From positions 44,647,741-44,711,740 of the forward strand of contig CM041465.1 of assembly GCA_023213395.1 (NCBI GenBank): DNA of 64,000 nt. Direction: 5' to 3'. The notes beneath the pieces were generated by a model. The model worked only from the letters and a program-made list of their open reading frames with translations, was not told the origin of the DNA and made no database searches. Numbering within the stretch: position 1 is the stretch's first letter; every line of letters starts with the position of its first letter. Shown here piece after piece: positions 55,873 through 56,515 of this stretch. This DNA is from Cycas panzhihuaensis. Lineage: Eukaryota > Plantae > Cycadophyta. Position numbers and translations under genes: made by a program.

Positions 55873-56082
55873 CTTGTTCATCCCTTCGATGGCATCTCTC
55901 ATGGACTGCTCATCACTGTAGGTTACAAATCCAAATCCATGGGATCTACCATTCTCTCGATCAAATACGATCTTGGATTCTAGAACTTCTCCAAAAGCCC
56001 TGAAAGCCTGTTCCAGACTTCTGTTGTCGGTGGCCCATGCAAGCCTGCCAATGAAACATCAATACTCAACTTCGACTGAAGC
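55873..56082 (-). pseudogene. GRP7: Intron-less fragment of a glycine-rich RNA-binding protein (GRP7/GRP8 class RRM)
   Basis: Manual translation: ASVEVEY*CFIGRLAWATDNRSLEQAFRAFGEVLESKIVFDRENGRSHGFGFVTYSDEQSMRDAIEGMNK. Contains RNP2 and RNP1 (RSHGFGFV). Not in the ORF track. Confidence 0.93.
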
Positions 56083-56097
56083 AGGATAGAAACAAAG

Positions 56098-56515
56098 ATG
56101 AGAATGGCCAATGCTATGGCAATGACAGTGGCTCCCGCTCTCTCAATTCTTACAATAGGAGGAGGAACAACCAATACAACCCTGCCCAAGATTTGTTCAA
56201 TGCCAACCACACTAAACCCCAAGTTTGCAGGGCTTAACCTCAGATGTGCCCGTGTTGGAGGAGTGGAAATACCCAACGGTAAAACAATAGAATATTCATT
56301 TCAATACATTCATGGAGGAGGAAGTACCACAACTTGTCAGATATTATTTGATTTGGGTATGGAGAATAAGGTTACTCGTGGCTTGGCTGAGGAGGAACTG
56401 ACCAAAATTCGAGATGAGGTGTCAAGGTATATGATTGAAGGAGATTTGCGACGGTTTAACAACCTTGCCATCTAAAGACTGATTGAAATTCAATGCTACA
56501 GAGGAAAGACACCTA
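56098..56515 (+). pseudogene. RPS13: Fragment of nuclear-encoded plastid 30S ribosomal protein S13 (transit peptide plus most of the mature protein), uninterrupted
   Basis: ...LRCARVGGVEIPNGKTIEYSFQYIHG...EEELTKIRDEVSRYMIEGDLRRFNNLAI*RLIEIQCYRG. Premature stop at 56473-56475, truncated before the usual GLP.RGQRT motif. Confidence 0.95.

What the first reader, a model, noticed from the sequence alone, without database searches (positions are those of the whole stretch)
55873..56515. Head-to-head fusion of two host cDNAs: GRP7-type RRM (sense) and plastid RPS13 (antisense)
Seen: the GRP fragment begins at about codon 2 (56082, minus strand) only 15 nt from the RPS13 ATG (56098, plus strand). 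The GRP reads ...LESK-IVFDRE without a break. Known: GRP7/8 genes have their single intron at that SK/II boundary, so this is spliced mRNA, and both source genes are typically highly expressed. Inference: there were at least two capture events. The antisense piece is not explained by simple minus-strand template switching and implies plus-strand switching, antisense RNA or DNA-level repair. An LTR-driven transcript would be antisense to RPS13 mRNA and could produce trans-acting siRNAs.
Basis: partly seen in the sequence, partly recalled or inferred. Interest (0 to 1): 0.8.

Follow-up and report, generated by a model that had tools for sequence, protein, structure and literature searches.

The report
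Retrotransposon carrying two head-to-head mRNA copies
A jumping gene in a gymnosperm genome carries intron-less pieces of two host genes joined head to head, occurs as several diverged copies and is now decaying; one piece lies backwards, likely because the copying enzyme jumped onto a host messenger RNA while making the second DNA strand, an unusual variant of a known gene-capture process.

Summary
The fusion is real. GRP7-type codons 2-70 (minus strand, 55876-56082) meet the 5' UTR plus 135 of about 169 codons of plastid RPS13 (plus strand, 56080-56508). One correction: the ATG at 56098 is a mutation of this copy. The true start is 56104, and the 'gap' is RPS13 5' UTR, so the two cDNAs overlap by 3 nt. 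A second overlap of 8 nt lies at the RPS13 3' end. Both pieces sit between leader and gag of a 4.3-kb, pol-less Copia-type LTR element (5-bp target duplication, LTRs 7% apart). Five contigs from three studies cross the junction and differ from the window by 12-15%, so this is an amplified subfamily, not an assembly chimera. DNA contigs carrying parent letters stop at a splice-like RPS13 site that the element reads through. The copy is decaying, with C-to-T changes and a stop in each frame. A related element 10 kb away carries a WAT1-like piece. The kind is known (LTR-mediated retroposition, maize Bs1); the antisense piece is the variant. Its most likely route is a plus-strand template switch onto co-packaged mRNA or its cDNA. 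siRNA production is untested and would not need the antisense orientation.

The parts
53161..53165 (.). Target-site duplication, left copy (AGATG)
   Evidence: Same 5 bp flank both ends
53166..53570 (-). 3' LTR, 405 bp, TG...CA
   Evidence: 93% identical to 57051-57455; 19 transitions and 9 transversions in 405, K2P 0.073
53571..53582 (-). Polypurine tract; fixes the element's sense as the minus strand
   Evidence: Sequence directly; same tract in the related element at 39949
53584..55150 (-). Decayed long frame (526 codons, 9 stops): divergent Copia-type gag N-terminus plus an unassigned C-terminal part; no pol
   Evidence: Frame. Own Pfam hit only DUF4219 at E 0.13, below cut-off. Relative P0124 (50% identical) hits DUF4219 and Retrotran_gag_2 below cut-off; Atlas look-alikes are Copia gag clusters. 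No protease, RT, RNase H or integrase in six frames
55151..55598 (-). Non-coding spacer upstream of gag; left edge of the cargo slot is approximate
   Evidence: Summed contig depth about 800-1400, between gag (8000-10000) and cargo (50-220); 147-nt bins
55599..55875 (.). Segment Y, unidentified cargo-slot sequence joined to the GRP 3' end in other copies too
   Evidence: Y-GRP join crossed by X1 rec 6, X2 recs 14 and 15, X5 rec 30 and X6 rec 17; no Pfam or Rfam identity
55876..56082 (-). GRP7-type glycine-rich RNA-binding protein cDNA piece, codons 2-70, sense to the element; no start codon; one stop (56061) absent from the parent contigs and most other copies
   Evidence: parent contigs
56080..56082 (.). 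3-nt overlap (AGC) shared by both parents at the head-to-head junction; 5 of 6 nt with one mismatch
   Evidence: X5 contig aligns from 56080 with 51 loose letters before it. Depth arithmetic predicts 320 for a start at 56080 and 297 for 56083; observed 316
56080..56508 (+). Nuclear-encoded plastid RPS13 cDNA piece, antisense to the element: 24 nt of 5' UTR, ATG at 56104, 135 codons; stop at 56473 not in parent or other copies
   Evidence: about 6% different from the X20 parent contigs (28 of 443 aligned letters)
56448..56449 (+). Inferred removed intron of the RPS13 parent (between L and R of GDL|RRF)
   Evidence: DNA contigs carrying three parent-specific letters start at 56448 in X6 and in X7; one X7 contig with a parent letter fits an end at 56448 (table 3; codons)
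56501..56508 (.). 8-nt overlap (GAGGAAAG) between the RPS13 3' end and segment X
   Evidence: Parent contigs leave at 56508; 2 X6 contigs enter at 56501 from other sequence that was not found elsewhere in the window
56509..56920 (.). Segment X, unidentified; variants lacking about 56398-56537 or 56647-56903 exist in other copies
   Evidence: Joints; no protein relative for the one frame searched; no Pfam or Rfam hit
57039..57050 (-). Primer-binding site of the initiator-Met tRNA type, one mismatch to the recalled consensus
   Evidence: Sequence; consensus recalled; same motif next to other LTRs in the window
57051..57455 (-). 5' LTR, 405 bp
57456..57460 (.). Target-site duplication, right copy (AGATG)

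Best explanation
The two gene pieces are decaying passengers of a pol-less, gag-bearing Copia-type LTR element that exists in several copies, and they were likely picked up by reverse transcriptase switching templates at short shared sequences, the backwards RPS13 piece likely during plus-strand synthesis. Shown: the element's anatomy; both cDNA pieces and their ends; the 3-nt and 8-nt overlaps; other diverged copies with the same junction; decay of this copy. Inferred: GRP and RPS13 mRNAs were co-packaged with the element RNA in a particle whose enzymes came from an autonomous Copia. GRP was copied by an ordinary minus-strand switch, which gives sense cargo. RPS13 mRNA has the same polarity as minus-strand DNA, so the enzyme making the plus strand could leave segment X at the 8-nt overlap, copy the mRNA toward its 5' end and return at the 3-nt overlap in GRP codon 2. 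An equivalent route inside the same particle has the growing minus strand prime on a free RPS13 first-strand cDNA end. The chimera kept its LTRs, primer site, purine tract and gag, was amplified in trans, and was then likely methylated. It makes no fusion protein: GRP has no start codon and RPS13 is antisense and truncated.
For: Anatomy and target duplication. No pol domain. Exact parent ends and overlaps; the chance of an overlap of 8 nt or more is about 1e-4, of 3 nt or more about 0.06. Of the 7 listed contigs that cross the junction, 5 have 31 nt or more on both sides (X2 rec 16, X5 rec 31/11, X7 recs 26, 27, 28; three studies, three organism codes); they differ from the window by 12-15%. 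RPS13 intron signature at 56448 in two runs. Of 37 changes between X20 contigs and the window, 22 are T>C or A>G, meaning C-to-T type decay in the copy. Among listed RPS13 coding differences, those private to this copy are 7 replacement or nonsense to 1 silent. Those shared by element copies but absent from the parent RNA are 2 replacement to 5 silent (Fisher p 0.04). So the RPS13 piece was nearly pristine when amplified, which leaves little time for an intermediate pseudogene. Multi-gene capture with microsimilarity and secondary amplification is described in PMC5131818 (passages).
Against: Overlaps read the same on both strands, so they do not tell plus-strand switching from the rivals. The 3-nt overlap alone is near chance. 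The two X6 contigs behind the 8-nt overlap could be later recombinants, not the pre-capture state. Two X6 contigs that run on in RPS13 past 56508 disagree with each other (agreement 0.63); one may be a longer retrocopy, which would favour rival 1. The difference table showed 40 of 115 rows, chosen by support; 5 of the 20 RPS13 coding rows (4 mixed, 1 seen mainly in X20) were left out of the Fisher count. The GRP intron rests on one contig 4 nt off register. The gag assignment is below Pfam cut-offs. No contig spans the whole element, and no long reads of this locus were seen.
Confidence: 0.55

Rival explanations
1. RPS13 mRNA first became an ordinary retrocopy elsewhere. An antisense read-through transcript of that copy, from a neighbouring LTR, was co-packaged and captured by a normal minus-strand switch. 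No unusual enzymology is needed.
For: The window is a nest of LTR elements in both orientations, so antisense read-through is plausible. Two X6 contigs continue in RPS13 past 56508 and differ from each other. Element copies share at least one likely derived RPS13 change, at 56474. LTR-borne retrocopies are transcribed on both strands (PMC5131818, section 8).
Against: Differences shared by the family are mostly silent and look like change in the parent lineage (5 of 7). An antisense transcript would be far rarer than the mRNA (inference). No such donor copy was identified.
Confidence: 0.23
2. A chromosomal copy of the element suffered a double-strand break that was patched from an RPS13 cDNA or retrocopy by microhomology-guided synthesis. 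This is blind to orientation. The patched copy then retrotransposed.
For: Overlaps at both ends and arbitrary orientation fit templated break repair (established knowledge, recalled). Other copies show further short-overlap rearrangements in the same slot, such as the 56397-to-56538 joint in X5, X6 and X7.
Against: No filler bases at either join. Cargo falls between leader and gag both here and in the related element at 39599-43889, which fits packaging-linked capture but also selection for an intact gag.
Confidence: 0.15
3. The antisense RPS13 piece was kept because element transcripts or siRNAs regulate the RPS13 gene in trans.
For: The orientation allows it. Gene capture is linked to cross-talk siRNAs and donor methylation in maize (bioRxiv 10.1101/777037, passages) and to donor methylation in a conifer (PMC13477047, passages).
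Against: Copies differ from the window by 12-15%, about twice the copy-to-parent distance, and this copy shows C-to-T decay; there is no sign of sequence conservation. Only about 16-25% of 21-24-nt windows would match perfectly. Some copies have deleted part of RPS13.
Confidence: 0.05
4. The junction is an assembly chimera, or one genomic capture of two adjacent divergent intron-less genes.
For: No long read across this very locus was seen, and no whole genome is held.
Against: Five contigs from three studies cross the junction. The GRP start codon and up to 163 upstream letters, and 51 upstream RPS13 letters, are missing at the join. The RPS13 parent shows an intron signature. The LTR pair and target duplication are intact.
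Confidence: 0.02

Closest known systems
LTR-mediated retroposition (Tan et al. 2016, PMC5131818; passages and section 8 read, supplements not read)
   Same: Partial mRNA copies inside an LTR element, microsimilarity at switch points, two parent genes in one chimera, further amplification as a non-autonomous element.
   Different: Here one cDNA is antisense to the element and head to head with the other. The cargo sits upstream of a retained gag frame instead of replacing internal ORFs. The main text has no hit for 'orientation' or 'opposite'; orientations may be given in its supplements, which I did not see.
Maize Bs1 (original papers not held; seen only as described in PMC5131818 and PMC13317346)
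   Same: [quoted passage not shown]
   Different: Bs1 forms a transcribed, translated chimeric ORF and has 1-5 copies. Here no fused ORF exists, the pieces oppose each other, and the copy is decaying.
TR-GAG / gag-only non-autonomous LTR retrotransposons (seen as cited in PMC13570524, passages; the original description is recalled)
   Same: About 4 kb, LTRs, Met-type primer site, purine tract, gag-like frame, no pol, modular interior.
   Different: A variable slot with host cDNA cargo 5' of gag; gag is divergent and scores below Pfam cut-offs.
TE exon capture in gymnosperms (PMC13477047, passages)
   Same: About 400,000 captured fragments per genome; about 14% of host TEs carry two or more; first and second exons are favoured.
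   Different: A bulk survey; its main text has no hit for 'orientation' and, in the passages read, no junction-level mechanism.
Antisense extra ORFs of Retand, Grande and RIRE2 (PMC11963269, passages)
   Same: Coding sequence antisense to gag inside a plant LTR element. [quoted passage not shown]
   Different: Those ORFs are conserved, lie between pol and the 3' LTR of Gypsy elements, and have no traced host donor. This one has a known donor, lies 5' of gag in a Copia-type element, and is decaying.

Membership tests
LTR retrotransposon insertion | Paired LTRs with TG...CA ends and a 4-6 bp target duplication | tested here: met
   405-bp LTRs, 93% identical, 5-bp duplication
LTR retrotransposon insertion | Primer-binding site and polypurine tract next to the LTRs on one strand | tested here: met
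   Both on the minus strand; primer-site consensus recalled
TR-GAG-like non-autonomous Copia | No protease, integrase, RT or RNase H | tested here: met
   Six-frame Pfam scan of the interior found none, while other elements in the window do hit these domains
TR-GAG-like non-autonomous Copia | Retains a gag domain | tested here: inconclusive
   Own score below cut-off. Relatives hit DUF4219 and Retrotran_gag_2, mostly below cut-off; Atlas neighbours are Copia gag. Likely, not proven
TR-GAG-like non-autonomous Copia | Identified autonomous partner sharing LTR or leader | not testable with these tools
   No genome held; only a weak translated match (E 0.001) to the Copia at 30340-35551
LTR-mediated retrocopy (Bs1 / Tan 2016 type) | Partial host mRNA copy enclosed by one element's LTRs | tested here: met
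LTR-mediated retrocopy (Bs1 / Tan 2016 type) | Loss of a parental intron: RPS13 | tested here: met
   Parent-letter DNA contigs start at 56448 in X6 and X7, and RNA-like contigs run through as the window does; inferred from contig ends, intron sequence not seen
LTR-mediated retrocopy (Bs1 / Tan 2016 type) | Loss of a parental intron: GRP | tested here: inconclusive
   One X7 contig leaves at 55975 into AT-rich sequence that reads as an acceptor on the GRP strand; the expected boundary is 55972/55971. Intron position recalled; the literature search found nothing usable
LTR-mediated retrocopy (Bs1 / Tan 2016 type) | Microsimilarity at switch points | tested here: met
   8 nt and 3 nt at the two RPS13 ends; the GRP-to-Y junction could not be tested because Y's source is unknown
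LTR-mediated retrocopy (Bs1 / Tan 2016 type) | Secondary amplification with shared switch points | tested here: met
   At least 3 overlapping, different bridging contigs in X7 alone; 5 of 7 listed crossing contigs pass the 31-nt rule
LTR-mediated retrocopy (Bs1 / Tan 2016 type) | [quoted passage not shown] | tested here: not met
   Met for GRP, not for RPS13; this is the variant feature
LTR-mediated retrocopy (Bs1 / Tan 2016 type) | Co-transcription from the LTR | not testable with these tools
   No raw RNA reads and no run on record as RNA held the stretch
Functional chimeric retrogene (Bs1 proper) | Open fused frame under purifying selection | tested here: not met
   A stop in each piece, no start codon for GRP, private changes 7 replacement or nonsense to 1 silent
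Trans-acting siRNA source | 21-24-nt RNAs shared with the parent, and parent methylation over the shared segment | not testable with these tools
   No small-RNA or methylation data available

The most novel reading that the evidence does not exclude
A gymnosperm clade of gag-only Copia elements has a dedicated cargo slot between leader and gag that samples host mRNAs (GRP, RPS13, WAT1-like seen so far), and its reverse transcriptase can switch onto co-packaged mRNA during plus-strand synthesis. That would be a recurrent route to antisense cDNA copies, which are then amplified and shared across species and could supply antisense RNA against housekeeping genes.
Probability: 0.25. Interest if true: 0.65.

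Novelty: new variant of a known kind. Interest (0 to 1): 0.4.

Why it matters
Gene capture by LTR elements is known and is very common in gymnosperms, so the event itself is ordinary. This case is unusually well resolved: both donors are identified, both ends of the backwards piece have overlaps, and several copies exist in several species' runs. The standard minus-strand model does not yield antisense cargo from a mature mRNA. A census of cargo orientation in this one family, in an assembled genome, would therefore test directly whether plant LTR reverse transcriptases capture mRNA on the second strand, and would give matched sense and antisense cargos for testing capture-driven silencing of donor genes.

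Tried and rejected
No whole genome is held, so the parents could not be located and copies could not be counted. Run search: no RNA holder listed, which says nothing about expression. In run X20 segments X and Y had little or no cover, and no listed X20 piece crosses the junction; this blank is not used as evidence. Summed contig depth is not copy number, so it is used only to mark modules; no copy count beyond 'at least three in one run' is claimed. An early idea that the junction is the 5' end of the RPS13 mRNA (the X20 contig stops at about 56083) is weakened by an X5 contig with 51 more letters; X5 may hold DNA, so this stays open. A second RPS13 intron near K|F (56223/56224) is only hinted at by an X20 contig break and a Taxus partial model that starts at that F. 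The contigs with a parent-like letter at 56241 were dropped as evidence, because they do not show the parent letter at 56256 and may be decayed element copies. Segment X: one frame searched against longer proteins gave none at E 1 or below; X and Y gave no Pfam or Rfam identity and no second copy in the window. Two loose-end motifs were not found in the window above chance. The long frame has one full-length-range relative, unnamed, with no Pfam hit. The RPS13 tree excludes the angiosperm clade but does not place the host among gymnosperms. Earlier findings of the scan: none. Literature: searches listed no paper whose title or abstract start describes an antisense, spliced host cDNA inside a plant LTR element. 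Term searches found no 'orientation' or 'antisense' in PMC3726574 or PMC13317346. PMC12789967 and PMC6797480 (passages) did not bear on the route. PMC2258280 has no intron data. The library lacks most subscription papers, including the Bs1 originals, and no supplements were read, so absence from print is not shown. I recall inverted inserts from retroviral and yeast Ty1 work but could not confirm them.

Full report
Setting. The window is a nest of LTR retrotransposons: self-comparison gives at least eight direct-repeat pairs of LTR size, and several interiors hit Copia or Gypsy domains. The RPS13 piece is closest to Ginkgo (76%) and Picea (70%) proteins and falls outside the angiosperm clade in a 14-sequence tree. 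The host is therefore a gymnosperm; the lineage is not resolved. No whole genome is held.

The observation. The GRP piece reads on the minus strand from 56082 to 55876. It is an RRM (E 4.7e-17) whose best solved relative is a glycine-rich RNA-binding protein. The RPS13 piece reads on the plus strand (E 1.3e-13). Contigs of public runs fix the ends. High-depth contigs in X5 and X20 follow GRP to 56082 and then continue into its start codon and 5' UTR (163 and 34 loose letters). They follow RPS13 to 56508 and then continue in its coding sequence. The stretch 56083-56103 is RPS13 5' UTR. An X5 contig aligns from 56080 with 51 unrelated letters before it. Depth arithmetic shows that this is the high-depth RPS13 contig (predicted 320 for a start at 56080, 297 for 56083; observed 316). 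The two sources thus overlap by three bases. At the other end, two X6 contigs enter at 56501 from sequence not found in the window, which gives an 8-nt overlap between RPS13 and segment X. Chance is about 0.06 for 3 nt and 1e-4 for 8 nt. The second overlap assumes those two contigs show the state before capture.

The carrier. LTRs at 53166-53570 and 57051-57455 are 405 bp, differ at 28 sites (K2P 0.073) and are flanked by a 5-bp duplication. The primer site at 57050 and the purine tract at 53571 make the minus strand the sense strand. A six-frame Pfam scan of the interior finds only RRM and S13, and no pol domain. A 526-codon frame with 9 stops starts at 55150. Its N-terminus is likely a divergent Copia gag: its own score is below cut-off, but relatives and Atlas neighbours carry DUF4219 and Retrotran_gag_2. 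The order in element sense is 5' LTR, primer site, leader, X, RPS13 (antisense), GRP (sense), Y, spacer, gag, purine tract, 3' LTR. Summed contig depth in X1 and X2 falls from about 17,000-20,000 (LTR) and 8,000-10,000 (gag) to 50-220 over the cargo. This is not a copy number, but it marks a very abundant backbone with a rare, variable cargo slot. The age depends on the rate: 7.3% gives about 17 million years at 2.2e-9 per site per year (a recalled conifer rate), and 3 to 52 million years across the rates tried.

Not an artefact, and amplified. Of seven listed contigs that cross the junction, five have at least 31 letters on both sides: X2 record 16, X5 record 31 (= 11), and X7 records 26-28. 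They come from three studies and three organism codes and differ from the window by 12-15%. The piece tables were cut (37,797 and 565 pieces not shown) and favour long, hence diverged, contigs. The three X7 contigs overlap and differ from the window at 20, 23 and 30 sites, so I read them as at least three copies in that run. These are short-read contigs of other copies, not long reads of this locus. Other copies join 56397 to 56538 (X5, X6, X7) or 56646 to 56904 (X2, X5), so the slot kept rearranging.

Spliced origin. In X6 and X7, low-depth DNA contigs that carry three parent-specific letters (56451, 56454, 56474) begin at 56448. One X7 contig with a parent letter at 56435 fits an end at the same base; a start at 56422 would also fit that one row. 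This is the pattern of an intron between L and R of GDLRRF, a position I also recall from Arabidopsis. The window and the RNA-like contigs read through it. For GRP, one X7 contig leaves at 55975 into AT-rich sequence ending like an acceptor, 4 nt from the expected boundary; I count that as suggestive only. Genomic capture of two neighbouring genes is further contradicted by the loss of both upstream regions at the join.

Decay. The pieces differ from X20 contigs by 6.3% (RPS13) and 7.3% (GRP). Of 37 changes, 22 are of the C-to-T type in the copy, as expected for methylated DNA. The RPS13 stop is absent from the parent and the other copies laid; the GRP stop is absent from the parent and most copies (X7: 70.7 of 100.5 depth lack it). 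Of 20 listed RPS13 coding rows in which X20 differs, 8 are private to this copy (7 replacement or nonsense, 1 silent), 7 are shared by element copies (2 replacement, 5 silent), and 5 were left out as mixed or species-specific; Fisher p is 0.04 (the table showed 40 of 115 rows). This is the pattern of a neutral copy beside a constrained parent, and it suggests that the RPS13 piece was close to its mRNA when the subfamily spread. No fusion protein is expected: GRP has no start codon between the upstream stop and codon 2.

Mechanism. [quoted passage not shown] RPS13 is the exception. Its mRNA has the polarity of minus-strand DNA, so a plus-strand switch in at the 8-nt overlap and out at the 3-nt overlap gives this structure from an abundant template with no intermediate. 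Priming of the minus strand on a free RPS13 cDNA end gives the same product. I put about 0.9 on RNA-level capture within this element family and 0.55 on this route. An antisense transcript of an earlier retrocopy gets 0.23, helped by two X6 contigs that run on past 56508 and disagree with each other. Break repair in a chromosomal copy gets 0.15. The overlaps do not separate these routes. Whether capture was one event or two is not settled.

Function. Nothing here shows one. Capture-linked siRNAs and donor methylation are reported in maize (10.1101/777037, passages), and donor methylation in a conifer (PMC13477047, passages). From established knowledge these do not need antisense cargo, and only about 16-25% of 21-24-nt windows would still match. 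No small-RNA or raw RNA data could be examined.

A related element. The element at 39599-43889 has the same primer-site type and purine tract, its own 5-bp duplication, LTRs 6% apart, and a gag region 68% identical to the focal one. In the same slot it carries a WAT1/EamA-like C-terminal piece in sense (Pfam E 4e-5, below cut-off; Atlas top hit WAT1-related). Two related elements 10 kb apart with different cargo suggest that capture recurs in this clade.

Verdict. Real, well resolved, and mostly of a known kind: LTR-mediated retroposition with several donors, as in Bs1. The variant features are a backwards, spliced cDNA with overlaps at both ends and a cargo slot 5' of a retained gag. My searches listed no description of this arrangement in plants, but the library is partial and no supplements were read. 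Novelty: new variant of a known kind. Interest 0.4.

Noticed in passing
window 39599-43889 (-), cargo about 42169-42480: Related pol-less element (gag region 68% identical, LTRs 6% apart, own 5-bp duplication) with a WAT1/EamA-like transporter C-terminal piece in sense in the same slot. It reads unbroken through a place where I recall a conserved intron. The rest of its slot (about 41300-43300) is unidentified.
   Followed up: partly
window 53584-54600 (-): The frame after the gag-like start continues for about 340 codons with few stops. One unnamed protein is 73% identical and has no Pfam hit. The related element has an unrelated acidic tail there. It could be a real extra domain or a shadow frame.
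   Followed up: partly
window 55599-55875: Segment Y keeps a CpG observed/expected ratio of 1.1, against 0-0.6 in the other modules, and on the plus strand looks like a plant 5' region with a splice-acceptor-like motif (by eye). It may be a third host-derived piece.
   Followed up: partly
window 55875-56024, run X6 record 18 and loose ends: DNA contigs carry intron-less GRP sequence with different flanks, which suggests further, independent GRP retrocopies in these genomes.
   Followed up: no
window 56397-56553, runs X5, X6, X7: Several copies join mid-RPS13 to segment X, and two X7 contigs show X-like sequence joined to the later part of RPS13. A 5-nt match exists between the two places, which suggests repeated recombination in the slot.
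   Followed up: partly
window 30340-35551 and 58410-63664: Two full-length but broken Copia elements with integrase and RT hits, 5-bp duplications and LTRs 4-6% apart. The first has a primer-site context like the focal element's and is a candidate relative of the helper family; the similarity is weak.
   Followed up: partly
window 4691-20270: Three nested LTR pairs (4691/20081, 7148/18207, 8491/14416), each 88-90% identical.
   Followed up: no
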